NCBI GenBank assembly: GCA_964484505.1 | Contig: CAZAFB010000002.1 | Coordinates: 9,679 to 73,678, forward strand | Reading direction: 5' to 3' | DNA length: 64,000 nt | From: an uncultured Bdellovibrionales bacterium | GTDB taxonomy: Bacteria > Patescibacteriota > Minisyncoccia > Moranbacterales > GWC2-37-73 | In this document: piece after piece, positions 1,595-43,786 of the stretch | How the letters are laid out: every line of letters starts with the position of its first letter | Position numbering within the stretch: the first letter of the stretch is position 1 | Notes under the pieces: model-generated | The model's input: only the letters and a program-made list of their open reading frames with translations | Told to the model about the DNA's origin: nothing | The model's database searches: none | Position numbers and translations under genes: made by a program

Positions 1595-1628
1595 TTGAAA
1601 TTTTTTGAGGACCGGTTCCTTTTTTTAA

Positions 1629-4600
1629 CTATTTAGCAAGGACAAAGGCGGCACTTTTTGCAGTTATTGTGCCGTCAGTATTGGTTTGACACACATACAC
1701 CTCATATTGTCCCCCGGCAAAATCCTTGCTTAATGATATTTCCCAGTTGCCATTATTGTCAGCAATCGTACCGGCAGTTGAAATTTGGCCATCCGAACCA
1801 TAGACGAAAACCGTAATTGAACGATTGCTAGGCACTGTTCCTGTCGCACTCAAAATAACATTGGCGGTTTCATTCTCCACAAATGCGGCATTGATGATAA
1901 TGAAATTATCATTGATTTCGCCTGAAAATTTCGGGTTGGAAAAACTTATTTTATCCCCTTTGTTTCCGTCGGAAGCTTCCAATGGATTATAACCATAGCG
2001 AAGTTCATCGCCATCTAGGAAAGTGTCACCATCGGTATCATATGAATAGGGATTCGTGCCGAGGCGATTTTCTTCTTCATCCACAAGCCCGTCTCCATCA
2101 GAGTCTACCGGCCCGTTGAAAGATTCGGTTGTTTGCGTTTTGACTGTTGGCACCGCTTCGGTCTCGTCCTTGCTTTCCACAATCCACCAGTCGAATGAAA
2201 TATCTTCCGTCACATTACCCTTAACTGAAACAACAAATCCCTCGCTTGGTTTCTTTTGGGTTACGGCGAGCGGATATTCGGCTGCCACTTTTGCCGTTAC
2301 GAATATCTTGGAATTATCAGTGACCGCCTTGGTTTTAATTTCCACATTGCTATTGTTTGCCCTGATGACAGCTTCCCCTATGGTTTTGGCTTCCGGATCC
2401 GTAATTTTAACCGTAAACACTCCTGCAACCATTTCTGCAGCGGTAATTTTGCCATCGAGCAAATCAACATTTCCTATTTCGTCTTTGTATATCATCTTTT
2501 GCACATCAAGCGCAATGGCGAAATCGAGAATTGCTTGATTTTGAGCATTGATCAGTTCCATTTGACTTTCCAATGTGGTGATTCGATTAACTTGGGCATT
2601 GAGCTGACTGCTCAAATCAGCAACTATCGTAGATTGGGATGCGATCGATTGTGTCAACTGAGCTTGAGCCTCGGTTATAATTCTGTTTACCTTGTCCTCA
2701 ACATCCATTTCGGCGATTCTTTGAGATACTTCTTCTTCCACCTTTTCCACGGTGAGCGATTTATTTCTGCGAGAGATGAGCACTTGGATAATTCCTTCTC
2801 CTTGTTGGATAGGCTCAAGAGCAACACCGACAGTAGAATCGCCGGAGTTTGCTTTCATAACATACCCTGGCTTGGTGGCTGCAGTAAGAGAATCTCCCGG
2901 ATTAATCTGTCCGTTTTCTGTGGATACTTTGGCGGGAACTTGTCCGAGCATACCGACGATGACGTAATTGTTGTCGAATTCCCTGCCCGGCTGAGCATTA
3001 CCCAACACTGAAGGAGAAGTGGAGACAATGCCCATAAGGTCAGGATCTTCTGCTCGAGTACAGCGCTTAACAGCATTGGAATTGTTGGTGTCTACGCATA
3101 CTGCTTCCCCAGGAGCAAGATCATGATCTTTTGTTTTGAAGAATTCGGCGTAGTCCGCGCTTCCATTAGTCCAAGCGTTGGAGTTATTAACATAAGCAGG
3201 GCTGGTACCGTCGCTATTCCAGTCTACATAGAACTTATAGGTGGCAGGGCTGGTTACGCCGATTCCCACGTTTCCTGAGCCGTTGATGGTTAGATAGGTA
3301 TTTGATCCTGCAGCTGCGCCGGAACCTATTTTGAAGAAGTCATCGGTATCATCTTGTCCTACATAGAAATCACGGGTGTTGCCGTCAAAGAGAACCAGTT
3401 GATCAGTGGCTGTTCCAGCTCCGAGGGTAATTGATGATTGACTAGTATCGGAACTGGTCATGGTCAAGATGCCGGTATTTCCGGTTGATAGGTTAGCGTA
3501 GTTGGAAGAATTGTAGGAAAGTCTGAGGCCATTGGTTGTGCCAAATATATCCAAGCTTGCTCCTGGCGTGGTGGTGCCAATGCCGAGGCGGCTATTGGTA
3601 TCATCCCAATACATTGTGGAGAATGCAGTCCAGGTACCGGCATTATTATAGAGCATCTGACCTTCTGTTCCGGAAGGCATACCGGATCCTGCCGCTGCCC
3701 AATATCCAGCCCCTGTTCCATCGGAAGTCCATACTTGACCGGAGGTTCCGGCAGAGCCAATGAAATATGCTCCGTAGGTGGATATGTCATAGCCATCGAC
3801 AGTACCGGAGATAATAAGATTGCCATTGATATTTGTATTTCCATTTACATCAAAAAGATACCCTGGGTCGCTGGTTCCGATTCCTACATTGCCATCTTGT
3901 TCTATAACTAAACGATTCAAACCACTGGTAAACATATTGATTCCATAATATCCGGAAACATAAGCTCCACTTTCGCTACCTGCATATGGTGTCGGGCGAT
4001 GAAATCCAAAACCGTAATGGTTCAAATACAATCCATTATAGGTAAAGTCATCATCAGATGTATTTGTGATACCGGGAGAATCATTATCCGTAGCACTTGC
4101 TCTGGAAATCTTGAGAATTCCGTTATTCAAATCAAGTTTTTCTCCCGGACTTGTCGTGCCAATGCCGATATTTGTTCCATTGTCATATATATTGGAATTT
4201 TCCAGGGCACTCGTTCCATTGAAGCGTGGAATGTAATTGTCTGTTCCGGAAATGGATGAAGCGGTTGCGTAATATGAACCATGTTGTCCATCGAGGAGGT
4301 CGGCGTTGAGGTTGGTATTGAGTGTTGTTGAGGTTACGGCTAATGGAGCTGTTCCTGTTGCCAGAGTTGAGGTGAGTTGTCCAGACATATTTAGTGTAGT
4401 GATTCCGGAAATCGCTCCTGCGCTTGAAATGTCCCAATCATTGCTATTGATAGCAATATCATCACCGCCGTCACCGAGTACCACTTGTCCATTTGCAGTA
4501 AGGGTTCCGTTGGACGTCAAGTTCGTGATAGCTGTAATTCCTGCCGGAAAAGTAACGTTCTTGTCTCTATCATAATATTCAGCATTTCTTCTTGCCGCTG

Positions 4601-7600
4601 GATAACCGCCCATCCACTCTATTCCATACAAAGTAAACGGATTCGCATATGTGGCAGATGCAATTGAAAATGTAATTCTAACTTGACCATATTGGGATGC
4701 GTTTGCGCTATACCATATAGGTGTATGAGGTATATAAACATGTCCAGGCCAGTTTGAAGTAGTACCATTGGTTATTTCCGTCCATCCATTGGTATTGTGA
4801 TAAGCTTCAATCTTGAAATTAACATTGTTTCCATTGGTTGAACAATATACATATAAGGCATTAAGAGAAATATATCCTGTACCGCCAGCCGCGTAGTCCC
4901 AAGTTAATCTATAATATCCCGAGCCACCAACGCTTGGCGCAGGTATGGCATTAACACTAGTTGATTGGCCTTCTCCAATCATCAAGTCTTTTAGATTATT
5001 TGTTGAAAGTCTTGTTGATGGCGTCCAAGTAGAACCATCTGCAGATTCTTCCTGCGAATATGCCGGTATAAATCTGAATTTATTATTGAATTGTCCATGG
5101 AAAAGCGCCATTTCTTCTACAGTTGGCGTTCCAAGATTGCTAGTTACGGTATTGAGAGCATTTTTCACTCCGGTTATTGTTCCGTTTACGGTCAAGGTTC
5201 CATTTACAGTTAACAAGTTACTATTAAGAGAAAGGAGGTCCGTATCAGAAGTATGACCTATGTTGGTGCCATCCAATCTTATATTATCAATAGTAGCAAT
5301 AGATCCAGTGTAGGAATTAGAAGTATTTGATAAAGTTAGAGCGTTGCTATATGTTCCAGAAAGCGAAGCATTAAGCAATAAGCCTGAGCCATCAATACCG
5401 TGCGATGTGTCGTCAACATAAAGACCTCCATCAGCCCTAAAATATTGTGGCGTATATATGTTCTTGGCAATATTCTGGTTAATTCTGAACCAAGTAGTGT
5501 CAGTGGAAGTCAATTCACCAACTTGAGTTGTGCCGTTATAGACTTTAATTGTTCCATTGGTATAAATATTGCCATTAACCGAAAGTTTTTCTCCCGGACT
5601 TGTCGTGCCAATGCCGATATTTGTTCCATTGTCATATATATTGGAATTTTCCAGGGCACTCGTTCCATTGAAGCGTGGAATGTAATTGTCTGTTCCGGAA
5701 ATGGATGAAGCGGTTGCGTAATATGAACCATGTTGTCCATCGAGGAGGTCGGCGTTGAGGTTGGTATTGAGAGTGGTTGAAGTCACGGCAAATGGCGCCG
5801 TGCCGGTTGCCAGAGTTGAAGTGAGTTGTCCAGACATTCCGATTGTCGTAACTCCGGAAAATGCTCCAGCGGTTGAAACGTCCCAGCTACTGGAATTTAC
5901 CGCAATAGTGTCTCCTCCATCTCCAATAGTTAGCGCTCCGGTAGTCGTCAAAGTTCCGGAAATATTATTGCTTCCGATTGTTCCTCCAGAAATCGTGATG
6001 GTATCGGCAACATATCCGTCAGCAATCGCATTACCACCCCAGGTTGCGTTCGAAATAGTCGAACCATTTATTGATATGAAACTGCTATTGGAATATATCC
6101 TCAGTGTACCATCAGCATCCAAAGATTGAATACCAGCTCTAAATGTTCCGCCGCTAGTTCCAGAAATGAGCCAAGTAGCTGAAGAGCCTGTGCCCATGGT
6201 AACATTCATACCTCCAGTATCTATACCATTGGTTGATCCCCAGCTACTACTGCGACCAGTTGTATAAACTCTGGAAAATGTCGGGCTGCTTGTTGTGAGG
6301 ACTGCTTGATTTAAATATGAAGCAAATTGATTACCATCCCAAAGATCAGCATTAAGATTGGAGACCAAAGTGGTTGAGGATACTGCTAACGGCGCCGTGC
6401 CAGTTGCAATTGTCGAAATCAATTGATTGTCAGTCCTGATTGCCCCACCGACAACATCAATTTTTGTCCCAGGACTTGTCGTTCCAATTCCAACATTTCC
6501 AGAATTTTTTATGGTCATCTTGACATCAGACATTGACACATTCGTGCCGTCCAGTACACCATTTAACGCAAAATGAAGATCACCAGTACCCCAAGTTCCA
6601 GTCCTTTGATGGTATATGGCTGATTTTATTGAATTTCCTCCTGCCACATATCCCTGAAAACCAATACCAGTCACTTCATTAGAAGCCAAAGGAGCCCCGA
6701 TCACTAATCCCACTTGGTTAGTGTTTGTGTCAACAATATGAGTTTTTGCTATCGAACTCGTCGTTCCAATTCCCACACTGCCCCCTACCGGATTAAGAGC
6801 GAGACTTCCATCATTAGCTATCCCTGTGTGCTTAGACTGAATGAAAGAATAACCAGCAGAACCCGCTCCCGCCACCGCACCAAGTTTGACTCCAACGTCA
6901 TTTAGTCCAGAATCAGTATCGAAACTCATTATTCCATAAGTAGTAGCATCTCCGGAAGTTCCAAGAATTTGTAACTTAGCCTGTGGACTCGTCGTTCCAA
7001 TTCCGACATTACCACTCGAATCTATACGAAGTCTTTCCGTACCGCCGGTTGAAAGTCCCAATGTGTCGGCAATCGGATTATAAATTCCCGTATTCTTGTC
7101 TCCCGTAAAAGTGAGGCTTGGAAGCGCTGCTGTTCCGGAGCCCATTCCGACGGTTCCGTTAAGATAAAGACTTCCGTTTTGGATAGCACTTGATGTCGAA
7201 TCAACGAGACGGGTAATGTCTGTGCGATAATAATCCTCAAATTCTCCGCGATTGTAGTACAATTGGGTCTGCTGTTCAGGAGTTAAATAGGCATCAAAAA
7301 CAGCCAAGCCCGCAATTTGAGCGTTTGCTTGATATGCGCCAGCATCATCCGAACCGATATACAAAGTTTTTCCCGTCGGATCTTGCGGTGTCCAACTGGC
7401 ACTTGAAGTATAACTGTTTCCATTAAGATAACAACGATTGTAGTTCCAATACCATCCGCAAGAAAGATGATTCCAGCCGTATCTGGTCACATCAGTCGTT
7501 GAAGTCGTTGATGTGGTCACCCATGCAGAACCGTTCCAATGATCGATAGAGAAACGATCATTCGTCGCATCCAAACGAACCCGTAATTCATTGGGGATGT

Positions 7601-10600
7601 ATAAAAGATATTTATCCGTATTATCACTTGTGATTGCGCGAGTCCATTGAGGCTTGAACCAGAAAGAAAAACCTCCCTTTTCTGATTTATAACTTGCCGG
7701 TACTGGGTATGACAATTTTTCTCCTGCGCGTGTAATTTCAGCAGTCGTGGTTGGGACATATGTTGTCGGAAAATATACGCTGCCGTTCGCCGCACTACGT
7801 TCAACTTGGATTCCATCAATATAAATGTTGCGGCTGGCGGATGGAAAATAAACTCCCACATCCCAGTTATTTGCGGCAGTGCTATCAAATTCACCGGTCA
7901 AACGATACCAACCATCCCCCAAAGGAGTGTAAGTAGTGGAAAGCGCGGTCAATCCATCATCTGTTCTAGCATAAAGACTTGCTATGGTCGAAGACATGTC
8001 AGCCCCCCAATAGCTTGTTTCATTTCTCCAGACATATGCTGAAACTTGGTGCTTCGTACCGGCAGTAACCTCTGAAAGATCGACTGTTTGGAAAACGCGA
8101 CAGGCAGCAGTGGAAGTCATATTTCCCGAATAAGTGCCATGCAGTGATTTGCCGGTCGATTGCGAAACAGAACATCCGGAACTTGCACTCCACTCACTTG
8201 GCGTCGATTCAAAAGAAGAATTTAGCAAAATATTCTTGCGCGATTCTTCCATATATATACCGAAATTTCCAGTCTTTGTTCCGGTGTCATAATAATAGTT
8301 ATTGGAATCAAACCCGCGATCTATTCGAGGCTCATTGGCGTTCTTGCTGACATATTTCAAACTGTTTTCATCAAGCGCCACCGCGCTACCGCTTGAAGCA
8401 TCAGTTCTTTGGAATGTTCCTACTTCTTTGCGAGAACCATCGATCGTGCCTTCGAAAGGAAGATGCAAGACGATATGCGATGAGAAATTGGAAGAGTTAT
8501 TGAGTCCGACATATCCGGTGTTTATGTATGAAGTGGAAAGAGTCCCTGTACTCACCGAACCTCCATACAATTCGCCTGATACACGTATACTTCCTCGCTG
8601 ATATGTGCGATTGCTTTGCTGAAGCATCACCAAATCACTCCTTTGATAATCCTCTATCGGCGCTTTGTCATTGTATATCTGAAGCACTTCGGCTTTGGTA
8701 AGACTACGACCAAAGATGGCAAAATCGGAAATCAAGGAATCAGCTCTGCCGCCCGCACTTGATTTGCTTCCCACATATAGCAGCGTATTTGTAGCCAACT
8801 GCTGAGTCTGGGCTGTCCATGAGGTCGCCGTAGCGACATATTCAATCCCGTCGAAATTTAAAACAAGTCCGGAAGTTGCATCCCATCTTACCGATACATA
8901 ATGATCTGTTCCGCCAACAAATGTTTGTGCCGGGGAGGAAACGGAAACTGTGGTCCAATTACTGCCGTTATACATCTGCGCATAAACCTTATCATCAGCC
9001 GCGCTATAGAAAATCTGAATAACATTCGGAACCTGCATAAGATAAAGGTCAGTTGCTGGCTTGTCATATGGCCACTCCGGTCTCCACCAAAATGACACTG
9101 TTCCTTTTGCAGGATCGATCAAAAAGTCGCTGCTCTCCGTGTTGCCGGTTCCGCGCCAGGCGTAATAATAGAGTGTTTCCTCGCCGCGGTTTCTTTGATT
9201 TGTGCCATTATTATAGATAAGTGAAGTTTCATATGGCACACCATTGGTGGTGTTGTAATCCGCTTCAATTTGACAACCATCCAATTGAATTTGTTTGCTC
9301 GCTTTGACGTTTACTCCATAATTAATCGCTCCGCCTGTTCCCGTGACTGTTCCCGAAATCTTATACCACCCACCCTCAACAGGTTTATATGAAGTAGCTA
9401 TAGCGCCATTGGCATAAAGCTCAACCACGGAGGAATCAACTGCACTGCGCACTGATCCTGATGTCGTATTTAACGCATAACAATAAAAGGGATAGCTTTG
9501 TCCGCTGGTAAGCGTATGCGAACGATAAGCGTTTCCGCCGGTAGCATTGGTATCACCAAGCGTAGCGGAATATGATTGGTGCTTCTTGTAGCCTGTCGTG
9601 GTGGTGAAAGTTTCCAAACCGCTGTTTGTCCATCCGCTTATTGAGCCACCGTCTTCAAATGAGGCATATTGGAAAAGATTACGTCTGCCGTTTTCCACCC
9701 AAACACCTTTGCCAATGTTTGTTTTTTCAAAGCGCGGAGTGTTGTTATATACATAATCATGGGTTATATATCCTGAGTCTGCAGTATAGGTAGCAGATGA
9801 ACCACTGGAAGTATCCGTTCTGGTATAATAGTCAGTATTTCCGCGAGATGATGAAAGTGAGTTTTGCATCGGCAAATAGAAAAGCAAATCATCGGCAATC
9901 ATTGAATTAGATAATCTCTGACCAGTTGGCAAATCGATATATGTGGAGCCTACTTTCAATCCGAGGTTTGTGTTGTCGCCGACAATATTGAGCAATCCTT
10001 CCGGGTTGGTCGTTCCAATGCCAACGCTTCCTGAAGCGCTGATCCGAAGACGTTCCGTTCCTGCCGTGGAAAAATTCAAAGTGTCATCGCCAGAGCTGAA
10101 CATTCCCGTGTTGGCATCGTTGTTGAAAGAAAAATTTGCATTTGACGCGCTTCCCTGATTGCTATATGCATATATATTGCCTACGCTCGTGATATCATTT
10201 GCGCCAAAGGTGATGTTGCCATTGGCAACCTCCAGGCTGGAACTTGGACTGGAAGTTCCGATTCCGAGTCTTCCGTTTAAATTATCCCAAAAAAATGAAC
10301 CGTTGTTTTGAGTGAGAAGTCCCCCGGTTCCGGCAAAAACCACTGATCCTTGCGTAAATCCGGTGGGAGTTATTGCCCCGGCAATGTTCGTGGCATACAC
10401 GTTTGCCCAACGATATGTGCCTGATCCTAAATTATATGTGTTATCAGCATCCGGTCCGAGATTTCCGGCAATCTGCAACTTGAAATTCGCCGGATTTGTC
10501 GTCCCAATGCCTAGATTTCCTGTACTTTGCTGCAGGAAGACTTGCCCGGAATTGAAGTTAAAATCTCCTGCACTGCCTACTGTCAACCTGGTCGTATCCG

Positions 10601-13600
10601 CTGTTTCCAAGTTTATACTATTGGCAGTACTAGTACCGAGATACATCGTATTGTCAGAATATATGTTAGCACCTGTGCCAAGTCCGCTTCCGGCAATATA
10701 TATGTTATATGTATCAGTAACTTGAAATCTTTTAGAGGGGTTTGTCGTTCCTATTCCGATATTCGTTCCATCGTTATATAGCAACGAATTCGCAACCCAT
10801 CCGGAACCATTGTTGCGTAAGGTTTGCCCGCTTGTGCCGCTTGGCAATGCGCCGCCGCCAGTTAAGTTAACTCCGTTCCAATATAGGTTTCCGCTGACGT
10901 TATACATCTTGTCGGTCACTGTTCCCGGTGCAGTCGTCTGCGCAAGACGAAGGCGACCATTTACATCAAGCGCCTCGGCAGGAGAAGTTGTGTTTATTCC
11001 AACCAAGCCATTATTCAAAACCAAAACGTCGCTATCCCATCCGGCAGCTCCTCTTGTTCCAAACTGCAGTCTAGCATAAGCATTTGTTGTATCGTAATAT
11101 ACTGCGCTTATACCGGCAGCGATGCTTCCGCTAGAAGTGCCTCTGAAGCCTATCCCGGACCACGTGTTATTTGTTCCGTTGGAATTTCTTATTATCAATT
11201 CCTCACCTCTTCCCCAAAGACTCGTGCTCGAATCTGATTTATTCACCTCCAATACAGCAATTGGATTTGTGGTACCAATACCGACATTGCCACCGTTGAA
11301 AGTAAAACCTTGTGTCTGGTTAGTATTGAATTGGAATTGATTGGAACCATATATGATATTGTTACTCGTGTTATTAAAATACAGATTCGCACCACTGCCA
11401 TCACCAATTTGAAGCGATCTGGCCAGACCGGACAAGATAACGTCACCATTGACATCCAATTTCTTTCCCGGACTTGTCGTCCCGATTCCCACATTGCCTT
11501 GAACATAAAGTCCGTTTGTGGGCGCACTATTTCCATAGTCACTCGTTATAGCCAAAGAGCCAACCTTTACAGGCAGTGCCGACCCGCCATCAGAAAAGAA
11601 TCCCGCATATGTTCCAGGTGAATAAATTTGACCGCCGATTCTGATTGCGCCATTTACATCCAAAGTGCGCGCGGGACTCGTTGTCCCAATTCCGACATTG
11701 CCACCAAAATATGATTTTGTTGAACCGGCGGTATAAATTGCAAAATTATTCGTCGAGCCTTTAACTAAATCAAAAACATATACACCATATTGCGTTCCGA
11801 TCGTTCCGGCACCGCTACCGTCATTGACCATCAGGCCATATGCATTGTTAGTAACATGTCCTGCTCCCGAATCAACTCTTGTCCAAAGAGCATGCGCATA
11901 ATCAGTTGTTCCACCGCTTCCATTGTTCCCTATCAACGACAAAACGCCCGTAACCGAGCTTACAGTTCCGCTTGTTATATTTGAACCGGTATTCAATCGC
12001 AAACCTTGCTTAAGTCCGGTATCTGCAATACCAAATGCTGTGTTGATAAATGCTCCATATTGTTCACTGGCGACAGCGGTTGAATATGTCTTCGAAACAG
12101 CAAGCATTGCTCCCGGATTTGAAGTTCCGATTCCGAAATTGCCTCCCATAAAATAACTGTTTCCATTTGTACTTATCTTGGTAGCAACGCCAGAATCGCT
12201 TGTTATATTTAGATATGCATCACCATTGTTTTCCAGTCCGAGACCGCCTCTGAAATTATCCCCACTGTTTTCAAATATTCTGAATGCATAGGTATTATCT
12301 ACTTGAGCTTGAATAGTTCCTTCTACATCAAATTTGTAAGCGGGACTTGTCGTTCCGATTCCCACATTGGTTCCGTTGTTATACAAAACCGAATTTGCAA
12401 TCCATGAAGTTCCGTTGTGACGGAGAGTTTGTCCGCTCGTTCCACTAGGAAGCGCGCCACCGCCGGAAAGATTGACTCCGTTCCAATATAGCGCGCCACT
12501 GACGTTGTAAAGTTTATCGGTCGTCGTAGCAGGCGCGGTTGTCTGCGCAAGACGAAGGCGACCGTTAACATCCAGAATTTCAGCAGGTGATGTTGTGCCG
12601 ATTCCAACGTTGCCACTGAAAAATCCATCTACACTAAAAATATCTCTCCATCTCAAAGAATCACTGCCCAGATCTCTTGTATCATTAGCACTTGGATAAA
12701 TACCGTTGGAAGTAAAATTTAATCTGTTAAATCCAGCAACATATACTTGTAATGTATCGTCTGCGCTTTCATAAAATCCAGTATCTCCATCGCCAAAGGA
12801 AAGTCCGCTCGCAGAAAATGTATAGCTCGTATCACTGATATGAAATCTAGTTGCAGGACTCGTCGTTCCGATTCCCACACGATTATTTGTCGAATCGATG
12901 TTTAAAATGCTGGTGCCGGATGCGTTTTGGAAATTTAGCGCGCTTGTTCCATTTGCCAGCATCCAGGGTTGCGGTTGCATCAGAGTCACTCCGCCGGCTG
13001 CATCCAAAACAACATCTCCGTTGTTAAAAGTGCGCAGCGTCAAATCATTTGATTCGAAAAGTTCGCCAACTTCGATCGTGAACGGCGCATTGGTTTTGAT
13101 ATTCGAAGCAGTTTGATTTGTGAAAATCAAATCATATGCCATCGAAACATCCCCGGAAGCAGTGAAAGAAGTCGGCACATTGAAAGATGCCTGAGTTGAA
13201 GAAATCGTCATCACGTCCGTGCCGCTCGCATTGAGCGTCAAAAGATTCCCGGTTCCATCGGAGCGAATGAAGAGACCTCCGGCGGCAGCACCCGTGTTGG
13301 AGTTATAGAAATTCGCGGCATAATCATTTACCGAAACATCAAGATCAATCGGGCCGTTCAGGTCAAGCGTGCCATTGACGGTCAACATATTACTCGCAAG
13401 ATTCAAAAGGTCGGTGTCAGAGGTGTGTCCGATTGTCGTGCCGTTAAGATAGAGATTATCTACCGTTGCGGCAGTTATATTTTGCAGTGCGCGAGCGGAA
13501 GTCAAAACGCTCGTGCCTCCCATGCGAAGTTCCGCACTGCCGATGATGTCAACATAGCTTGCGCCAGTTGCCAAATATGTCGAAGAAAAAGTCGTTACAT

Positions 13601-14330
13601 CACCGATCGCTCCAGCATTGATATCGATTCCATTGATAGTCTCATCAGTATTCAAAACCATCTGCCCTGACTCGTTGACGTAATATGAACTGGATTGGAA
13701 ATTCAAATTGCCGGTTGGATTCAAGGTCAAGGTTGTTGTTGAGTTTATGTCTCCACCGTTCACATTCACATCTCCGCTAACTGTCAAATTACCGGAAGTG
13801 TCAGTTGTCACAATGTGCGCATTAGCGCCACTAGTGGCACTGTCCAACCCATCAAGCAAATCAGAATTGAAAGCATATCCCGAAGCGCCGACTTTTTTTC
13901 TGGGACTCATCTCACTGTCTGATCCAACTTTGATGCCTAAATAATATGTCGAGTTAAAATCAAGATTGATCGCATTGTCACCGGCAACAGTATCACCGAT
14001 CATGATGGAGAAAATTCCATTGGTAACAGTTACAGCTCGCGCTGTCGGACTTCCGACCGTGCCGCGAGCAGTCCAAACGGGAGTGCCGCCACTAGCCGCG
14101 GCATACAAACTAATGACCATATTGTAACTGCCATCAGCAACCGCAACGCCCGAAGAATTTGTTAATTTTCCCTGATAACTAATTTCTTTCGTGATTGCAG
14201 CATGCGCATATTTTGAATAGACATATACGGAAACAATAACCAAAGACAACGACAAAAAACTTGCTACCATCTTTCGCAATCGAATTTTTTTTGCGTATTT
14301 GCTATTGTTTTTTATATTTCTTTCGTTCAT
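1629..14330 (-). CDS. Giant (4233 aa) membrane-anchored surface protein: phage tail-fibre-like repeats (about 40 copies of N[VI]GIGTTSP), LDGxxxxxY tail-fibre motifs, coiled coil, thrombospondin-type-3-like Ca-binding repeats, C-terminal Ig-like domain
   Basis: Single uninterrupted ORF with an N-terminal hydrophobic anchor (MVASFLSLSLVIVSVYVYS). It has periodic GNVGIGTTSP / LDVNG / LYxNG motifs and two LNADLLDGQHGSYYATASSISGTDNYIPRF segments. Towards the C-terminus there is a coiled coil (SQLNAQVNRITTLESQMELINAQ) followed by DSDGDGLVDEEE...TNPYSYDTDGDTFLDGDEL (DxDxDG Ca-binding). Confidence 0.85.
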   Translation of the reverse strand: MNERNIKNNSKYAKKIRLRKMVASFLSLSLVIVSVYVYSKYAHAAITKEISYQGKLTNSSGVAVADGSYNMVISLYAAASGGTPVWTARGTVGSPTARAVTVTNGIFSIMIGDTVAGDNAINLDFNSTYYLGIKVGSDSEMSPRKKVGASGYAFNSDLLDGLDSATSGANAHIVTTDTSGNLTVSGDVNVNGGDINSTTTLTLNPTGNLNFQSSSYYVNESGQMVLNTDETINGIDINAGAIGDVTTFSSTYLATGASYVDIIGSAELRMGGTSVLTSARALQNITAATVDNLYLNGTTIGHTSDTDLLNLASNMLTVNGTLDLNGPIDLDVSVNDYAANFYNSNTGAAAGGLFIRSDGTGNLLTLNASGTDVMTISSTQASFNVPTSFTASGDVSMAYDLIFTNQTASNIKTNAPFTIEVGELFESNDLTLRTFNNGDVVLDAAGGVTLMQPQPWMLANGTSALNFQNASGTSILNIDSTNNRVGIGTTSPATRFHISDTSYTFSASGLSFGDGDTGFYESADDTLQVYVAGFNRLNFTSNGIYPSANDTRDLGSDSLRWRDIFSVDGFFSGNVGIGTTSPAEILDVNGRLRLAQTTAPATTTDKLYNVSGALYWNGVNLSGGGALPSGTSGQTLRHNGTSWIANSVLYNNGTNVGIGTTSPAYKFDVEGTIQAQVDNTYAFRIFENSGDNFRGGLGLENNGDAYLNITSDSGVATKISTNGNSYFMGGNFGIGTSNPGAMLAVSKTYSTAVASEQYGAFINTAFGIADTGLKQGLRLNTGSNITSGTVSSVTGVLSLIGNNGSGGTTDYAHALWTRVDSGAGHVTNNAYGLMVNDGSGAGTIGTQYGVYVFDLVKGSTNNFAIYTAGSTKSYFGGNVGIGTTSPARTLDVNGAIRIGGQIYSPGTYAGFFSDGGSALPVKVGSLAITSDYGNSAPTNGLYVQGNVGIGTTSPGKKLDVNGDVILSGLARSLQIGDGSGANLYFNNTSNNIIYGSNQFQFNTNQTQGFTFNGGNVGIGTTNPIAVLEVNKSDSSTSLWGRGEELIIRNSNGTNNTWSGIGFRGTSSGSIAAGISAVYYDTTNAYARLQFGTRGAAGWDSDVLVLNNGLVGINTTSPAEALDVNGRLRLAQTTAPGTVTDKMYNVSGNLYWNGVNLTGGGALPSGTSGQTLRNNGSGWVANSLLYNDGTNIGIGTTNPSKRFQVTDTYNIYIAGSGLGTGANIYSDNTMYLGTSTANSINLETADTTRLTVGSAGDFNFNSGQVFLQQSTGNLGIGTTNPANFKLQIAGNLGPDADNTYNLGSGTYRWANVYATNIAGAITPTGFTQGSVVFAGTGGLLTQNNGSFFWDNLNGRLGIGTSSPSSSLEVANGNITFGANDITSVGNIYAYSNQGSASNANFSFNNDANTGMFSSGDDTLNFSTAGTERLRISASGSVGIGTTNPEGLLNIVGDNTNLGLKVGSTYIDLPTGQRLSNSMIADDLLFYLPMQNSLSSSRGNTDYYTRTDTSSGSSATYTADSGYITHDYVYNNTPRFEKTNIGKGVWVENGRRNLFQYASFEDGGSISGWTNSGLETFTTTTGYKKHQSYSATLGDTNATGGNAYRSHTLTSGQSYPFYCYALNTTSGSVRSAVDSSVVELYANGAIATSYKPVEGGWYKISGTVTGTGGAINYGVNVKASKQIQLDGCQIEADYNTTNGVPYETSLIYNNGTNQRNRGEETLYYYAWRGTGNTESSDFLIDPAKGTVSFWWRPEWPYDKPATDLYLMQVPNVIQIFYSAADDKVYAQMYNGSNWTTVSVSSPAQTFVGGTDHYVSVRWDATSGLVLNFDGIEYVATATSWTAQTQQLATNTLLYVGSKSSAGGRADSLISDFAIFGRSLTKAEVLQIYNDKAPIEDYQRSDLVMLQQSNRTYQRGSIRVSGELYGGSVSTGTLSTSYINTGYVGLNNSSNFSSHIVLHLPFEGTIDGSRKEVGTFQRTDASSGSAVALDENSLKYVSKNANEPRIDRGFDSNNYYYDTGTKTGNFGIYMEESRKNILLNSSFESTPSEWSASSGCSVSQSTGKSLHGTYSGNMTSTAACRVFQTVDLSEVTAGTKHQVSAYVWRNETSYWGADMSSTIASLYARTDDGLTALSTTYTPLGDGWYRLTGEFDSTAANNWDVGVYFPSASRNIYIDGIQVERSAANGSVYFPTTYVPTTTAEITRAGEKLSYPVPASYKSEKGGFSFWFKPQWTRAITSDNTDKYLLYIPNELRVRLDATNDRFSIDHWNGSAWVTTSTTSTTDVTRYGWNHLSCGWYWNYNRCYLNGNSYTSSASWTPQDPTGKTLYIGSDDAGAYQANAQIAGLAVFDAYLTPEQQTQLYYNRGEFEDYYRTDITRLVDSTSSAIQNGSLYLNGTVGMGSGTAALPSLTFTGDKNTGIYNPIADTLGLSTGGTERLRIDSSGNVGIGTTSPQAKLQILGTSGDATTYGIMSFDTDSGLNDVGVKLGAVAGAGSAGYSFIQSKHTGIANDGSLALNPVGGSVGIGTTSSIAKTHIVDTNTNQVGLVIGAPLASNEVTGIGFQGYVAGGNSIKSAIYHQRTGTWGTGDLHFALNGVLDGTNVSMSDVKMTIKNSGNVGIGTTSPGTKIDVVGGAIRTDNQLISTIATGTAPLAVSSTTLVSNLNADLWDGNQFASYLNQAVLTTSSPTFSRVYTTGRSSSWGSTNGIDTGGMNVTMGTGSSATWLISGTSGGTFRAGIQSLDADGTLRIYSNSSFISINGSTISNATWGGNAIADGYVADTITISGGTIGSNNISGTLTTTGALTIGDGGDTIAVNSSSWDVSTAGAFSGVTTIGMSGQLTSTLATGTAPFAVTSTTLNTNLNADLLDGQHGSYYATASSISGTDNYIPRFNGTSALENSNIYDNGTNIGIGTTSPGEKLSVNGNIYTNGTIKVYNGTTQVGELTSTDTTWFRINQNIAKNIYTPQYFRADGGLYVDDTSHGIDGSGLLLNASLSGTYSNALTLSNTSNSYTGSIATIDNIRLDGTNIGHTSDTDLLSLNSNLLTVNGTLTVNGTITGVKNALNTVTSNLGTPTVEEMALFHGQFNNKFRFIPAYSQEESADGSTWTPSTRLSTNNLKDLMIGEGQSTSVNAIPAPSVGGSGYYRLTWDYAAGGTGYISLNALYVYCSTNGNNVNFKIEAYHNTNGWTEITNGTTSNWPGHVYIPHTPIWYSANASQYGQVRITFSIASATYANPFTLYGIEWMGGYPAARRNAEYYDRDKNVTFPAGITAITNLTSNGTLTANGQVVLGDGGDDIAINSNDWDISSAGAISGITTLNMSGQLTSTLATGTAPLAVTSTTLNTNLNADLLDGQHGSYYATASSISGTDNYIPRFNGTSALENSNIYDNGTNIGIGTTSPGEKLDLNNGILKISRASATDNDSPGITNTSDDDFTYNGLYLNHYGFGFHRPTPYAGSESGAYVSGYYGINMFTSGLNRLVIEQDGNVGIGTSDPGYLFDVNGNTNINGNLIISGTVDGYDISTYGAYFIGSAGTSGQVWTSDGTGAGYWAAAGSGMPSGTEGQMLYNNAGTWTAFSTMYWDDTNSRLGIGTTTPGASLDIFGTTNGLRLSYNSSNYANLSTGNTGILTMTSSDTSQSSITLGAGTATDQLVLFDGNTRDFYVGQDDTDDFFKIGSGAAAGSNTYLTINGSGNVGIGVTSPATYKFYVDWNSDGTSPAYVNNSNAWTNGSADYAEFFKTKDHDLAPGEAVCVDTNNSNAVKRCTRAEDPDLMGIVSTSPSVLGNAQPGREFDNNYVIVGMLGQVPAKVSTENGQINPGDSLTAATKPGYVMKANSGDSTVGVALEPIQQGEGIIQVLISRRNKSLTVEKVEEEVSQRIAEMDVEDKVNRIITEAQAQLTQSIASQSTIVADLSSQLNAQVNRITTLESQMELINAQNQAILDFAIALDVQKMIYKDEIGNVDLLDGKITAAEMVAGVFTVKITDPEAKTIGEAVIRANNSNVEIKTKAVTDNSKIFVTAKVAAEYPLAVTQKKPSEGFVVSVKGNVTEDISFDWWIVESKDETEAVPTVKTQTTESFNGPVDSDGDGLVDEEENRLGTNPYSYDTDGDTFLDGDELRYGYNPLEASDGNKGDKISFSNPKFSGEINDNFIIINAAFVENETANVILSATGTVPSNRSITVFVYGSDGQISTAGTIADNNGNWEISLSKDFAGGQYEVYVCQTNTDGTITAKSAAFVLAK
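4134..4322. repeat. Intragenic duplication copy 1 (189 bp, identical to 5583-5771); similarity extends to about 4125-4470
   Basis: Base-by-base comparison with 5583-5771 shows identity. It encodes the repeated protein segment SGQLTSTLATGTAP(F/L)AVTSTTLNTNLNADLLDGQHGSYYATASSISGTDNYIPRFNGTSALENSNIYDNGTNIGIGTTSPGEKL. Confidence 0.8.
5583..5771. repeat. Intragenic duplication copy 2 (identical to 4134-4322); similarity extends to about 5575-5920
   Basis: Same evidence as copy 1. Identity decays gradually on both flanks. Confidence 0.8.
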
Positions 14331-14353
14331 TTTTCCGTTGATGCAAATCCTTT

Positions 14354-14496
14354 CTCTATTTTCGTCTTTCCTAAACCACTCTCTTTTTTTCTATCAAACT
14401 CATTTCCTAGAAAATAGTTACATGGATAAATGAAAATGGTTCAAGAAAATGGAAAGAAGAAACATGAATCATTTTTCTATTTTCGTCTTTCCTAAA
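14354..14496. promoter_or_regulatory. Two direct repeats of about 22-60 bp (core ttctattttcgtctttcctaaa at 14354-14375 and 14475-14496) in the 5' leader/promoter region of the giant gene
   Basis: Exact 21/22-bp core repeated 121 bp apart. Both copies are followed by similar T-rich tails (ttttttctatcaaactcatttcc vs ttttcttttttctgcttaacaaatttc). They lie immediately upstream (minus strand) of the start codon at 14330. Confidence 0.4.
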
Positions 14497-14542
14497 ACGA
14501 TTTTCTTTTTTCTGCTTAACAAATTTCTTATTTACTAAAATT

Positions 14543-14983
14543 TCATTCCTTCGGTACAACGTTTATCGATCTTACTTTTTGATTCGTGTCCACATAGATA
14601 TTCAAACTTCCGTCATCATTCTGTTCGATTTGATAGGACCCCTTTATTCCGTTTATTTGCTTACTTTTCTCACTGTTGCGAAAAATCAAAAATCCTCCAA
14701 TCATCAAACCAACCAATAAAATCAAGATTGCCACATAACGCCAAGTCAACCTATTCGCTTTTTCCTTTTCCGTAATTTTTTCCTCAATTATTTCATGTTG
14801 CACTTCAGCTTTGTCCGAGACCCTTTCCAGATATTCCAAAACGTCTTCTCTGGTAACCATCCATTTGCCATCTTTTTTGATCGCTCTGAGACGCTTCTTT
14901 CGTACCAAAAGACCCAGATAATTTGAGTCATATGGGGTCAGCTTTTCAGCCTCTTTAAGTGTGATATATGTCTTTTCCTGCAT
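14543..14983 (-). CDS. Small membrane-anchored DNA-binding protein: N-terminal excisionase/MerR-type helix-turn-helix, central TM helix, C-terminal extracytoplasmic tail
   Basis: ITLKEAEKLTPYDSNYLGLLVRKKRLRAIKKDGKWMVTREDVLEYL resembles HTH_17/excisionase-family DNA-binding domains. It is followed by a hydrophobic stretch WRYVAILILLVGLMIGGFLIF. Confidence 0.55.
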   Translation of the reverse strand: MQEKTYITLKEAEKLTPYDSNYLGLLVRKKRLRAIKKDGKWMVTREDVLEYLERVSDKAEVQHEIIEEKITEKEKANRLTWRYVAILILLVGLMIGGFLIFRNSEKSKQINGIKGSYQIEQNDDGSLNIYVDTNQKVRSINVVPKE

Positions 14984-21379: not shown

Positions 21380-21450
21380 CGAGGTCTAAAAAGAAATATG
21401 TTTCATGGAAAAAAGAAATTTGTTCAGGAAAGGTGAGGGTAACGTCAGAA

Positions 21451-23029: not shown

Positions 23030-23038
23030 TCATGGTTT

Positions 23039-23998: not shown

Positions 23999-24031
23999 AA
24001 TAGCTGTAAATATAATCTTAGGACTGTCTTT

Positions 24032-24715: not shown

Positions 24716-24798
24716 ATAGAAATATCCACGTTTATATCTAAAAGGAGGCAGGGTTTAAATTAATCCAGCGTATTTTAAAAATAATTATTTATCGCATA

Positions 24799-35169: not shown

Positions 35170-37366
<2,197 letters not shown>

Positions 37367-37781: not shown

Positions 37782-38050
37782 GATTGGTTGTATTATTCGT
37801 TTTTGTTATTTATCCTTCTTTTGTCATTTTAACGCAAAACAAAGCTTCTGGCAAGCAAAAAACAGCATCTGAAATGCTGCATTATTGCGGGGCATTGTGA
37901 ACGACATTAGGATTTTCTTTGAGACAGAGAACAACTTGAACTTTGCTCCCCTCAACAAAGACTAATTTTAAAAACATTCGGAAATACAAAACCCCTCGAT
38001 GGGGGGAGGGGGTCTAAAATATGGGACATAGCCAGAAATGCTTCTTAAAA

Positions 38051-39684: not shown

Positions 39685-39707
39685 TTTTTTTATTAAAATT
39701 ATTTTAG

Positions 39708-40091: not shown

Positions 40092-40357
40092 ATTTTTAAA
40101 ATTATTTTTTAACCAAACAAAAAAGGACAGCCGAGCTGTTCAACCATAACGTTCATCCCAAGGGAATCCCGATTACGGAACTCGGACTGCCCCTTACTAC
40201 CCACAATCGGGCGTAAAGACACAATCTCCCTTAGGAAATTTAGTTATGGTTGAACACTTATAGCTTACTATAGATAATCAGCAAAAACAAGGACTTCCAA
40301 GATTGCTTCTGAACGTAATTTGGGGTAAATTAAAGATACAGAAATAACAATAAAACT

Positions 40358-43762: not shown

Positions 43763-43786
43763 CATCATTAACCCCTCACACCTTTG

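What the first reader, a model, noticed from the sequence alone, without database searches (positions are those of the whole stretch)
1629..14330. 4233-aa giant protein built from phage tail-fibre-like modules
The protein has an N-terminal membrane anchor and then about 40 periodic GN[VI]GIGTTSP units. It also has LDGxHGSYY motifs of the kind found in phage tail fibres and endosialidase-like proteins. A region near residue 3700 (GIVSTSPSVLG...VIVGMLGQVPAKV...PGYVMKA) resembles intramolecular-chaperone / S74-like C-terminal domains of tail fibres. A coiled coil, thrombospondin-type Ca-binding repeats (DSDGDGLVDEEE, DTDGDTFLDGDE) and an Ig-like domain follow. A cellular protein that reuses tail-fibre architecture at this scale is notable. 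It could be an adhesin, or the remnant of a domesticated phage receptor-binding protein.
Basis: partly seen in the sequence, partly recalled or inferred. Interest (0 to 1): 0.7.

Follow-up and report, generated by a model that had tools for sequence, protein, structure and literature searches.

The report
Giant phage-fibre-like surface adhesin
This 4233-residue gene of an ultrasmall (Patescibacteria) bacterium encodes a secreted surface fibre built from the same modules as phage tail fibres, and it belongs to a large, undescribed family of such fibres that these bacteria probably use to hold on to other cells.

Summary
The ORF (window 1629-14330, minus strand, 4233 aa) is real. There are 20 GIGTTSP-type modules, not about 40. 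The N-terminus looks like a cleavable signal peptide. The chaperone-like region is of the phi29 gp12 / Peptidase_G2 type (D-Y-A-E at 3726-3729), not S74, and has no Ser-Lys dyad.

The shaft modules match solved Bdellovibrio MAT fibres (8ond, E 4e-12) and annotated phage tail fibres. The context is cellular (gyrB, ligA, surface-protein genes), with no phage morphogenesis genes.

The protein is one member of a big family, mostly from Patescibacteria. Members have a signal peptide, a conserved 120-aa N-domain, a variable shaft, one or two G2-like domains with invariant D-x-A-E, and a conserved coiled coil plus beta domain. Sizes run from about 330 to 6890 aa, so this gene is large but not unique.

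In viral contigs the same domain is strictly C-terminal. Here about 390 residues follow it.

Best reading: a trimeric host-attachment fibre whose C-terminal cassette registers the three chains and is then cut off. That cleavage is inferred, not shown.

A membrane-anchored HTH_17 protein is encoded just upstream, and is fused to relatives.

This is a new variant of a known kind, of moderate interest.

The parts
1629..14330 (-). Whole ORF, 4233 aa plus stop: the giant fibre protein.
   Evidence: The identical product is on JGI contig Ga0248168_1000272.
14199..14330 (-). Residues 1-44: basic n-region, hydrophobic core (19-40) and AHA|A. Probably a cleavable Sec signal peptide.
   Evidence: Hydropathy scan. 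An AxA-type site is conserved in front of the N-domain in homologues. Inference; no predictor was run.
13836..14198 (-). Residues 45-165: conserved N-domain (ISYQGKLT...NGIFSIMIGD...EMSPRKK...GYAFNSDLLDG), a beta-sandwich. Proposed to be the cell-proximal retention domain.
   Evidence: Alignments A2 and A3. AF2 model with pLDDT 81.9 and core above 90. 396 relatives in species-representative genomes and none in viral contigs. No close PDB or BFVD fold match.
12930..13835 (-). Residues 166-467: N/T/G-rich beta-rich shaft segment without capping-loop motifs. It includes a 41-aa unit (288-328) that is repeated at 3012-3052.
   Evidence: The unit is shared with a Pelagibacter phage tail fibre (P0067) and with 'bactofilin-like' annotated proteins.
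9978..12929 (-). Residues 468-1451: array of 12 fibre modules (spacing 68-147 aa, mostly about 81). Each ends in a capping-loop motif, xG(I/V)GT(T/S)xPxxxL.
   Evidence: Internal duplication of 573-672 and 1108-1207 at 78% identity.
8526..9953 (-). Residues 1460-1935: globular insert A. An N-terminal jelly-roll-like part (the sugar-binding-module look is inferred only) followed by a Laminin_G_3 domain (about 1730-1882).
   Evidence: Pfam Laminin_G_3, 33.4 bits against a cut-off of 27.6. No PDB sequence hit.
7131..8525 (-). Residues 1936-2400: globular insert B, a paralogue of insert A (about 27-33% identity), with Laminin_G_3 at 2221-2353.
6411..7130 (-). Residues 2401-2640: three modules most like the solved trimeric beta-helix of the Bdellovibrio MAT fibres.
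   Evidence: PDB sequence hits 8ond (Bd2133) E 4.1e-12, 8oml 6.9e-6, 8ojn 1.1e-5, 8on4 5e-4.
5169..6410 (-). Residues 2641-3054: shaft with two ATGTAP...NLNADL(L/W)DG collar motifs (2658, 2857-2871) and one capping loop.
   Evidence: Residues 2564-2687 are 41.7% identical to the Thermus phage MN1 distal tail fibre.
4461..5168 (-). Residues 3055-3290: globular insert of unknown fold (W/Y-rich, beta-rich look). A candidate ligand-binding domain.
   Evidence: No Pfam or PDB sequence match. The assignment is inference only.
3195..4460 (-). Residues 3291-3712: recent duplicate of 2802-2930 (83% identity, includes the second LDGQHGSYY), followed by four more capping-loop modules up to the predicted cleavage site.
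2811..3194 (-). Residues 3713-3840: Peptidase_G2-like intramolecular-chaperone / autoprocessing domain.
   Evidence: Close homologues carry PF11962. This protein scores E 6.1e-5, 23.0 bits against a cut-off of 25. A family HMM against phi29 gp12 gives 24.1 bits. Viral relatives exist at 28-40% identity.
3144..3155 (-). Residues 3726-3729, D-Y-A-E. The predicted autocleavage site is A3725|D3726, which aligns with S691|D692-F-A-E695 of phi29 gp12.
   Evidence: D-x-A-E is present in 165 of 173 domain copies of relatives and in every copy in the genome loci. Mature phi29 gp12* ends at 691 (PMC6542822).
2526..2810 (-). Residues 3841-3935: predicted coiled coil, part of the conserved post-chaperone cassette.
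   Evidence: Composition and heptad count. Conserved with the next domain in 176 of 225 relatives.
2136..2525 (-). Residues 3936-4065: conserved beta-rich domain (...DWWIVE...) that ends the family-wide C-terminal cassette.
   Evidence: The Moranbacteria 725-aa homologue P0020 ends here. There is a weak K1-lyase_C hit, E 0.049.
2001..2135 (-). Residues 4066-4110: two bacterial TSP3 (Ca-binding type) repeats.
   Evidence: Pfam TSP3_bac, 32.2 bits against a cut-off of 25. Not found in the other 224 relatives examined.
1632..2000 (-). Residues 4111-4233: Ig-like domain (Big_13-like, below threshold).
   Evidence: Pfam Big_13, 23.1 bits against a cut-off of 27. Specific to this protein among the relatives examined.
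14543..14983 (-). 146-aa HTH_17 protein with one transmembrane segment (78-105), encoded 212 bp upstream on the same strand. A conserved partner of the fibre gene.
   Evidence: Pfam HTH_17, 29.7 bits. TM segment. The same adjacency occurs in at least 7 related loci, and HTH_17 is fused N-terminally in at least 7 relatives.
14346..14530 (.). Intergenic duplicated 64-nt unit (14346-14409 and 14467-14530, 77% identity) with an exact 21-nt core, TTTAGGAAAGACGAAAATAGA, present twice. Possibly regulatory.
   Evidence: (0 of 100 shuffles reach 2 matches).

Best explanation
The gene encodes a secreted cell-surface fibre of a Patescibacteria (CPR; probably Moranbacteria-related) bacterium.

Proposed mechanism:
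1. The protein is exported through Sec and loses its signal peptide.
2. Its conserved 120-aa N-domain keeps it on the cell envelope. The partner may be the membrane-anchored HTH_17 protein encoded just upstream.
3. Three chains are brought into register by the conserved C-terminal cassette: the G2-like chaperone domain, a coiled coil and a beta domain.
4. The long shaft then folds from the C-terminus towards the N-terminus as a phage-tail-fibre-like trimeric beta-helix. It contains 20 capping-loop modules, interrupted by globular, probably ligand-binding inserts (two jelly-roll + LamG modules and one unknown domain).
5. The chain cuts itself at A3725|D3726 (D-Y-A-E). This releases the 508-residue C-terminal fragment and leaves a stable fibre roughly 0.1-0.2 micrometres long that binds the surface of a host or partner cell.

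What is shown: the ORF, its modular make-up, homology of the modules to solved MAT fibres and to phage tail fibres, homology of the chaperone domain to phi29 gp12, the family-wide architecture, and the cellular context.

What is inferred: trimerisation, self-cleavage, which end is anchored, fibre length, and the adhesin role.
For: - Tail-fibre module homology: PHROG tail-fibre families at 2.3e-30 and 2.6e-24. Phage tail-fibre tblastn hits sharing both signature motifs.
- Four solved Bdellovibrio MAT fibre chains match, up to E 4.1e-12. Their capping-loop consensus is V-G-G/N-pi-x-x-P-x-x-x-L (PMC10769870).
- Chaperone domain: PF11962 in close homologues. A family HMM aligns D3726 to D692 of phi29 gp12, whose mature form ends at 691. 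D-x-A-E is kept in 165 of 173 copies.
- Conserved architecture in 30 of 77 genome loci and 147 cluster representatives.
- A 725-aa Moranbacteria homologue consists of just the N-domain region fused to the C-terminal cassette. The giant is therefore an expansion of the variable middle, helped by internal duplications.
- Cellular surface-gene context and conserved synteny.
- CPR giant surface proteins are already proposed to be host-attachment factors (PMC8080830).
Against: - There is no experimental or structural evidence here for trimerisation or cleavage. The AF2 model of the chaperone region was unusable (pLDDT 48.8).
- This protein's own PF11962 score is below Pfam's cut-off (23.0 against 25).
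- Unlike phage versions, the domain is not C-terminal, and many relatives carry two tandem copies. That is awkward for a simple fold-then-discard model.
- The TSP3 + Ig tail would be thrown away on cleavage, although it looks like an adhesive or Ca-binding module.
- The ligand and the partner organism are unknown.
- Homology of the N-domain to the MAT N-domain could not be tested.
Confidence: 0.62

Rival explanations
1. It is the same surface fibre, but the G2-like domain no longer cleaves. It serves as a permanent trimerisation knot, and the C-terminal coiled coil, beta domain, TSP3 repeats and Ig domain form the distal adhesive tip.
For: - About 390 residues follow the domain here, with a median of 399 in relatives. 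In viral contigs the domain is terminal.
- The post-domain cassette is conserved.
- The TSP3 and Ig domains are typical extracellular binding modules.
- Tandem double copies occur in 26 of 147 relatives.
Against: - Near-invariance of D and E of D-x-A-E in both tandem copies and across the whole family is what a retained catalytic site would give.
- Both ends of the family are conserved while the middle varies. That fits a disposable assembly cassette better than a host-specific tip.
- The TSP3 + Ig tail is unique to this protein.
Confidence: 0.22
2. It is a prophage, tailocin or other phage-derived particle tail fibre (or its decaying remnant) rather than a cellular surface protein.
For: - Modules and both signature motifs are shared with phage tail fibres.
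- The chaperone domain has viral relatives.
- A serine recombinase island lies about 24 kb away.
Against: - The ORF is intact at 12.7 kb and carries a Sec signal.
- The N-domain is absent from IMG/VR viral contigs but was found 396 times in cellular genomes.
- There are no capsid, portal, terminase, tube or baseplate genes among the neighbours.
- The chromosomal synteny with gyrB and small surface proteins is conserved across several MAGs.
Confidence: 0.04
3. It is a non-adhesive structural coat: the fibre is a component of the fibrous envelope or S-layer-like matrix of the cell, giving spacing or protection rather than specific host recognition.
For: - CPR cells show thick fibrous surfaces attributed to giant proteins (PMC8080830).
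- The locus encodes several other giant or repetitive surface proteins: LamG x6, RCC1/fn3 and FG-GAP.
Against: - LamG-type and other globular inserts, and the extreme variability of the shaft between relatives (333 to more than 3500 aa in one family), are typical of diversifying recognition proteins.
- The closest characterised cellular relatives (MAT fibres) bind prey glycans (PMC10769870).
Confidence: 0.12

Closest known systems
Bdellovibrio bacteriovorus MAT (mosaic adhesive trimer) fibres, e.g. Bd2133 (PDB 8OND), Bd1334 (8OML), Bd3182 (Caulton et al. 2024, PMC10769870)
   Same: [quoted passage not shown]
- Both have a long shaft of tail-fibre-type beta-helix modules with the VG(x)G..P...L capping loop. 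Direct sequence similarity to four solved MAT chains reaches E 4e-12.
- Both are mosaic and variable in length, and occur in an organism that lives on other bacteria.
   Different: - MATs end in an S74 chaperone or a non-S74 tip. This protein has a G2-type domain followed by a conserved coiled coil and beta domain.
- Published MATs are 417-1915 aa. This one is 4233 aa and relatives reach 6890 aa.
- Globular LamG-type domains are inserted within the shaft.
- The host lineage is Patescibacteria, which is not listed in that paper.
- Homology of the N-domains could not be tested.
Bacillus phage phi29 gp12 pre-neck appendage (tailspike) and its C-terminal autochaperone; Pfam PF11962 Peptidase_G2 / MEROPS G2
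   Same: - Same motif series: W..|D-(Y/F)-A-E-(Y/F)-F, G(I/V)(V/I)S, V(V/I)G(L/M)LGQ.
- D3726 aligns with D692, the first residue of the released phi29 fragment.
- Viral homologues with D-x-A-E exist.
   Different: - In phi29 and in 19 of 21 viral contigs the domain is the extreme C-terminus. Here 393 more residues follow it.
- The phi29 domain has an insertion of about 55 aa that is absent here.
- Similarity is weak: 23-24 bits, and there is no tblastn hit in 50,697 phage records.
- Cleavage is untested, and so is the ATP dependence reported for phi29 (recalled from memory, not checked here).
S74-type intramolecular chaperones (K1F endosialidase, T5 L-shaped tail fibre pb1, MYRF)
   Same: The logic is the same: a C-terminal domain that drives trimerisation of a triple beta-helix and then removes itself. 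The capping-loop motif upstream is shared (PMC10769870).
   Different: There is no PF13884 hit and no Ser-Lys (SDxxxK) dyad. The catalytic motif and sequence family are different.
Phage long tail fibres with GNVGIGT..P and NLNADLLDGxH motifs, e.g. Thermus phage MN1 distal tail fibre, cyanophage tail fibres, PHROG 9942/18345
   Same: Modules of 40-120 aa are shared at 40-67% identity.
   Different: The phage proteins have no signal peptide or N-domain, are encoded in virion modules, and are much shorter (MN1: 1547 aa).
Giant surface proteins of CPR bacteria (e.g. Vampirococcus lugosii, 1392-4163 aa; PMC8080830)
   Same: Same lineage-level theme: very large envelope proteins thought to mediate attachment to the host.
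   Different: Those were described by generic adhesion domains (WD40, PKD, integrin, fibronectin). In the literature I could search, no tail-fibre/G2-chaperone architecture was reported for them.

Membership tests
MAT (mosaic adhesive trimer) superfamily | N-terminal Sec signal peptide | tested here: met
   Basic n-region, an 18-22-aa hydrophobic core and AHA|A. An AxA-type site is conserved in homologues. This is a motif-level test only; no SignalP was run.
MAT (mosaic adhesive trimer) superfamily | Conserved beta-rich domain of about 130 aa immediately after the signal peptide, homologous among MATs | tested here: inconclusive
   A conserved beta-sandwich of about 120 aa is in exactly that position. 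Like the MAT domain, it has no PDB homologue. It also occurs fused to S74 termini (P0062). No Bdellovibrio MAT N-terminal sequence or AFDB library was available for a direct comparison.
MAT (mosaic adhesive trimer) superfamily | Shaft of tail-fibre-like beta-helix modules with capping loops (V-G-G/N-pi-x-x-P-x-x-x-L) | tested here: met
   20 modules. Sequence hits to 8ond, 8oml, 8ojn and 8on4. The motif here is one residue longer (VGIGTTSPxxxL), as it is in Bd2133 and Bd1334 themselves.
MAT (mosaic adhesive trimer) superfamily | Homotrimeric fibre displayed on the cell surface | not testable with these tools
   No multimer modelling or experiment was possible.
Peptidase_G2 (PF11962; phi29 gp12-type intramolecular chaperone) | Match to the Pfam model at its gathering score | tested here: inconclusive
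   This protein scores 23.0 bits against a cut-off of 25, E 6.1e-5. Five of 10 close homologues match (best 5.6e-8), and three carry PF11962 in precomputed annotation. A family HMM against phi29 gp12 gives 24.1 bits.
Peptidase_G2 (PF11962; phi29 gp12-type intramolecular chaperone) | Conserved Asp and Glu (D-x-A-E) at the cleavage boundary | tested here: met
   D3726-Y-A-E3729 aligns with D692-F-A-E695. The motif is kept in 165 of 173 copies of relatives. The catalytic role of these residues is recalled from the phi29 literature, not tested.
Peptidase_G2 (PF11962; phi29 gp12-type intramolecular chaperone) | Domain lies at the extreme C-terminus of a tailspike or fibre | tested here: not met
   393 residues follow the domain. 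140 of 147 relatives have at least 150 residues after it. The viral versions are terminal.
Peptidase_G2 (PF11962; phi29 gp12-type intramolecular chaperone) | Autoproteolytic release after trimer folding | not testable with these tools
   Needs expression and mutagenesis, or proteomics.
Peptidase_S74 (endosialidase/T5 pb1/MYRF-type chaperone) | PF13884 match and the Ser-Lys catalytic dyad (SDxxxK) | tested here: not met
   No PF13884 hit at E<=1 in ten overlapping tiles. The only SDxxxK is at 2235, inside a LamG module.
Phage virion tail fibre | Encoded within a phage morphogenesis module and attached to a virion | tested here: not met
   Neighbours are gyrB, ligA, gatA and surface-protein genes. 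There are no structural phage genes by Pfam or PHROGs. The N-domain is absent from viral contigs.

The most novel reading that the evidence does not exclude
The fibre and the membrane-anchored HTH_17 protein encoded directly upstream form one contact-sensing unit. In relatives the HTH_17 domain, one transmembrane helix and the giant fibre are a single polypeptide. That would be a ToxR-like membrane-tethered DNA-binding protein whose 'sensor domain' is a fibre 0.1-0.2 micrometres long. Binding of a host cell, or self-cleavage of the fibre, would then be transmitted to gene expression in these ultrasmall cells. The duplicated 21-nt core upstream of the fibre gene would be its operator. More modestly, the G2-cassette fibres could be the main, previously unrecognised host-attachment organelle of many Patescibacteria.
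Probability: 0.1. Interest if true: 0.85.

Novelty: new variant of a known kind. Interest (0 to 1): 0.52.

Why it matters
How Patescibacteria (CPR), perhaps a quarter of bacterial diversity, recognise and hold on to their host cells is largely unknown beyond type IV pili.

This gene is a window onto a very large and apparently undescribed family:
- 541 clusters at 50% identity reach E<=1e-30 with the chaperone-domain profile, and 8,551 reach E<=1e-10. The weaker matches probably include phage proteins.
- The family combines a cell-specific N-domain, a freely expandable phage-fibre shaft, and a phage-type self-processing cassette in a non-phage arrangement.

It extends the Bdellovibrio MAT concept from predators to episymbionts. 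It shows that the second (G2) type of tailspike chaperone is also used by cells. It gives concrete handles for experiments: the D-x-A-E site, the LamG-type inserts and the HTH-TM partner.

For this particular window the finding is a well-explained member of that family rather than a singular oddity.

Tried and rejected
- A whole-protein homology search timed out, so I searched by region instead.
- The AF2 model of the chaperone region from a 10-sequence alignment was too poor to use (pLDDT 48.8), so I made no fold claim for it.
- tblastn of the chaperone domain against 50,697 phage records found nothing.
- A PDB profile search gave only a marginal hit, to 'chaperon domain D4 of tailspike Dpo31', at the DYAEYF motif (E 0.4).
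- hhalign against a single phi29 sequence gave only 13% probability. A richer family HMM was needed.
- NCBIfam gave no hit.
- PDB sequence searches of insert A, the 3055-3290 insert and the post-chaperone cassette found nothing.
- The S74 reading was rejected, and so was the prophage reading.
- 'Bdellovibrionales' and 'Gammaproteobacteria' labels on some related MAG contigs looked like a link to Bdellovibrio. I discounted them: L004, labelled Bdellovibrionales, carries a gyrB fragment 81% identical to the window's gene, L004/L005 share the same surface-gene cluster, and one 'gammaproteobacterial' chromosome is only 886 kb.
- The direct repeats upstream of the gene are not conserved in relatives.
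Full report
**1. The observation**

Window 1629-14330 (minus strand) is one uninterrupted ORF of 4233 codons. The identical protein is called on an independent JGI metagenome contig of 105,865 bp. Flanking genes of the window are also found on an NCBI contig of 117 kb. The internal repeats are at most 83% identical at the protein level. An assembly artefact is therefore unlikely.

Composition is G/T/S/N-rich.

- The strict GN[VI]GIGTTSP motif occurs 5 times.
- A looser motif occurs 19 times.
- A module HMM finds 20 copies, not about 40.
- LDGQHGSYY occurs twice, and a degenerate third copy sits at 2658.

TSP3 repeats pass Pfam's cut-off. The Big_13 Ig-like hit is below threshold.

**2. Context**

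The window is cellular. It contains:
- gyrB (35170-37302), ligA and gatA;
- a pilin-like gene;
- a 2517-aa RCC1/fn3 protein and a 1778-aa protein with six LamG domains;
- two WxL-interacting-protein-like genes;
- an FG-GAP protein downstream of the giant gene.

No phage morphogenesis genes were found by Pfam or PHROGs.

The best relatives of the N-terminal region and of the neighbouring genes are MAGs labelled Moraniibacteriota, Falkowbacteria, Uhrbacteria and 'Patescibacteria group'. The organism is therefore a CPR/Patescibacteria bacterium, probably related to Moranbacteria.

**3. Anatomy (residue numbers)**

| Residues | Feature |
|---|---|
| 1-44 | Signal peptide (AHA\|A; AxA-type site conserved in homologues) |
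| 45-165 | Conserved beta-sandwich N-domain (AF2 pLDDT 81.9) |
| 166-467 | Beta-rich shaft without capping loops |
| 468-1451 | Twelve fibre modules, mostly about 81 aa apart, each ending in the xGIGTTxPxxxL loop |
| 1460-1935 and 1936-2400 | Two paralogous globular inserts, each ending in a Laminin_G_3 domain |
| 2401-2640 | Three modules closest to solved MAT fibres |
| 2641-3054 | Shaft with ATGTAP...NLNADLLDG collars |
| 3055-3290 | Globular insert with no detectable relatives |
| 3291-3712 | A recent duplicate of 2802-2930, plus four more modules |
| 3713-3840 | Chaperone-like domain |
| 3841-3935 | Coiled coil |
| 3936-4065 | Beta domain |
| 4066-4110 | TSP3 x2 |
| 4111-4233 | Ig-like domain |

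**4. Are the modules really of the tail-fibre kind?**

Yes.
- The whole protein hits PHROG tail-fibre families 9942 (E 2.3e-30) and 18345 (E 2.6e-24).
- tblastn of residues 2401-2940 finds 31 phage records. These include the distal tail fibres of Thermus phages and cyanophage tail fibres.
- The Thermus phage MN1 fibre reads SDGNVGIGTTVPSEKLEV...NLNADLLDGYHASDF.
- Residues 2401-2640 match four solved chains of the Bdellovibrio bacteriovorus MAT fibres: 8ond/Bd2133 at E 4.1e-12, 8oml, 8ojn and 8on4.

In those crystal structures the unit is a trimeric, intertwined beta-helix. The VG(G/N)...P...L segment is a 'capping loop' shared with S74-type tailspikes (PMC10769870). The repeated motif is therefore a known structural element of trimeric fibres.

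**5. The chaperone-like region is G2-type, not S74**

Against S74:
- No tile hits PF13884 at E<=1.
- No SDxxxK dyad occurs in the C-terminal part.

For G2:
- Close homologues of residues 3641-3864 carry PF11962 (Peptidase_G2, IMC autoproteolytic cleavage domain).
- This protein's own hit is just below threshold (23.0 bits against 25; E 6.1e-5). Five of ten homologues match.
- An HMM built from 221 domain copies of the family scores phi29 gp12 at 24.1 bits. It aligns D3726-Y-A-E3729 with D692-F-A-E695, and IVGMLGQ with VVGLLGQ.
- Mature phi29 gp12* ends at residue 691 (PMC6542822). The aligned boundary is therefore the phage cleavage site.

The predicted cut here is A3725|D3726.

**6. The family**

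*N-domain.* A scan of one genome per species with the N-domain found 396 relatives. Of the 77 best loci, most are Patescibacteria. ORFs carrying the domain range from 333 to 3426 aa when complete. Five run beyond the 10-kb flank, so they exceed 3476 aa. Thirty of the 77 also carry the G2-like domain, often twice in tandem. Every copy has D-x-A-E, and 127-514 residues follow each copy.

*Chaperone domain.* An exhaustive profile search with the chaperone core found:
- 21,580 clusters at 50% identity with E<=1e-3;
- 8,551 with E<=1e-10;
- 541 with E<=1e-30.

Among the 147 best:
- median length is 1271 aa and the maximum is 6890 aa;
- 41 are at least 2000 aa and 7 are at least 4000 aa;
- 140 have at least 150 residues after the last copy (median 399);
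- D-x-A-E is present in 165 of 173 copies.

*C-terminal cassette.* The coiled coil plus beta domain is conserved in 176 of 225 relatives. The TSP3 + Ig tail is unique to this protein.

*A minimal member.* A complete 725-aa Moranbacteria homologue (P0020) is simply the N-terminal region (residues 26-230) joined to the C-terminal cassette (residues 3688-4052). The giant is thus an expansion of the variable middle, partly through internal duplication.

Homologues are not uniformly giant, but giants, including larger ones, are common in the family.

**7. Relation to viruses**

In IMG/VR viral contigs the chaperone domain occurs in 21 loci at 28-40% identity, with D-x-A-E. In 19 of the 21 it is the extreme C-terminus, with 1-27 residues after it. 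The N-domain was not found in viral contigs. It has no convincing viral or PDB structural counterpart.

So the shaft modules and the chaperone are shared with phages. The N-terminal 'presentation' end and the extended C-terminal cassette are cellular features. The direction of transfer cannot be told from these data.

**8. Mechanism**

The best-supported reading follows the MAT and phage precedents:
1. Sec export.
2. Retention on the envelope through the N-domain.
3. Chain registration by the C-terminal cassette.
4. Folding of a trimeric beta-helical fibre from the C-terminus towards the N-terminus.
5. Self-cleavage at D-x-A-E, releasing the cassette.
6. Ligand binding by the inserted LamG-type and unknown globular domains, or by the shaft surface.

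Bd3182 (922 aa) is modelled at about 550 Å. Scaling that to about 2,500 shaft residues gives very roughly 0.1-0.2 micrometres. This is an extrapolation.

The main rival is that the G2-like domain is a permanent knot and the C-terminal domains are the tip. The conservation of D and E, and the pattern of conserved ends around a variable middle, argue against it. The non-terminal position and the tandem copies argue for it. Only an experiment will tell.

**9. A partner gene**

A 146-aa protein with an HTH_17 domain and one transmembrane helix is encoded 212 bp upstream of the giant gene.
- The same adjacency is seen in at least seven related loci.
- In at least seven other members the similar HTH-type region is fused to the N-terminus and followed by one transmembrane helix. 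These include P0307 (3105 aa), where Pfam scores HTH_17 at 29.5 bits. In these members the fusion replaces the signal peptide and N-domain.

This gene-fusion link suggests that the HTH-TM protein is the membrane anchor of the fibre, or part of a contact-sensing device.

The intergenic region is a duplicated 64-nt unit with an exact 21-nt core that occurs nowhere else in the window. It is not conserved in relatives.

**10. Comparison, novelty and verdict**

Already published:
- cellular reuse of tail-fibre architecture, as MAT fibres (PMC10769870);
- giant CPR surface proteins (PMC8080830);
- G2 chaperones in phages.

Not found in the searchable literature (and the table of MATs in other organisms):
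- this Patescibacteria-wide family;
- the use of a G2-type cassette by cellular fibres;
- its non-terminal, sometimes doubled arrangement;
- the HTH-TM linkage.

I rate it a new variant of a known kind. The window's gene itself is a typical, if large, member.

Noticed in passing
window 14543-14983 (-); related loci L003, L005, L006, L007, L008, L016, L077; proteins P0307, P0238, P0212, P0324, P0312, P0226, P0286: An HTH_17 + single-TM protein is encoded immediately upstream of the fibre gene. The adjacency is conserved in related genomes. In other giants that carry the chaperone domain, the HTH_17 and TM are fused to the N-terminus in place of the signal peptide and N-domain (P0212 has two HTH copies).
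   Followed up: partly
window 14346-14409 and 14467-14530: The 212-bp intergenic region upstream of the giant gene is a duplicated 64-nt unit (77% identity). Its exact 21-nt core, TTTAGGAAAGACGAAAATAGA, is present twice and nowhere else in the window. It may be an operator or promoter duplication. It is not conserved in relatives.
   Followed up: partly
window 20681-25449 (-); L004, L005, L006, L008, L014, L018: This is a cluster of small secreted or membrane proteins. Two are WxLIP_PGBD-like proteins (319 and 331 aa) with C-terminal TM segments. Three are paralogues (216, 227 and 232 aa) ending in ...GTQRSGxYxGTITYQATTKP. One is a 204-aa protein. The cluster is syntenic with fibre genes and gyrB in several Patescibacteria MAGs. 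It resembles the WxL cell-surface-complex loci of Firmicutes.
   Followed up: partly
window 15204-20540 (-) and 27397-34950 (-): Two further giant surface proteins lie in the same locus: a 1778-aa protein with DUF2341 and six Laminin_G_3 domains, and a 2517-aa protein with RCC1 propeller repeats and many fn3 / purple-acid-phosphatase-N domains.
   Followed up: no
window 2-1624 (-): The gene immediately downstream of the fibre gene encodes a membrane-anchored FG-GAP repeat (integrin-like) protein that runs off the window start. A homologue lies downstream of the fibre gene in L009.
   Followed up: no
window about 38000-44000 (recombinase at 42103-43728, +): A low-GC stretch (0.34 against 0.41) with reversed strand bias contains a large serine recombinase (Resolvase + Recombinase + Zn_ribbon_recom) and several ORFs without family matches. 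It is probably an integrated element, about 24 kb from the fibre gene.
   Followed up: no
L010, L015, L022, L032, L034, L036, L040, L045, L052, L055, L064, L066, L072, L073 and others: Many family members carry two tandem G2-like domains about 140-270 residues apart, each with its own D-x-A-E. The first copy is usually D-L-A-E and the second D-(Y/F)-A-E-R-Y. Two successive self-cleavage sites in one fibre have no phage precedent that I know of.
   Followed up: partly
L004, L005, L017, L015 and other 'binchicken' TPA MAG contigs: Contigs labelled 'uncultured Bdellovibrionales' or 'Gammaproteobacteria' look like Patescibacteria. L004 (labelled Bdellovibrionales) carries a gyrB fragment 81% identical to the window's gene, L004 and L005 share the same surface-gene cluster, and one 'gammaproteobacterial' chromosome is only 886 kb. 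The taxonomic labels are probably wrong.
   Followed up: partly
P0066 (419 aa, 'Candidatus Diapherotrites archaeon'), P0062 (561 aa), P0161, P0165: The N-domain also occurs in a DPANN archaeal MAG, where it is joined to GIGTTSP modules. In other bacteria it is joined to Peptidase_S74, phage tail-collar or collagen termini. It seems to be a general presentation domain with swappable fibres.
   Followed up: no
P0007 (297 aa, Patescibacteria, partial): An intein-splicing domain (PF14890) lies directly upstream of the shaft/chaperone region in one partial homologue. This suggests an intein inside, or next to, a fibre gene.
   Followed up: no
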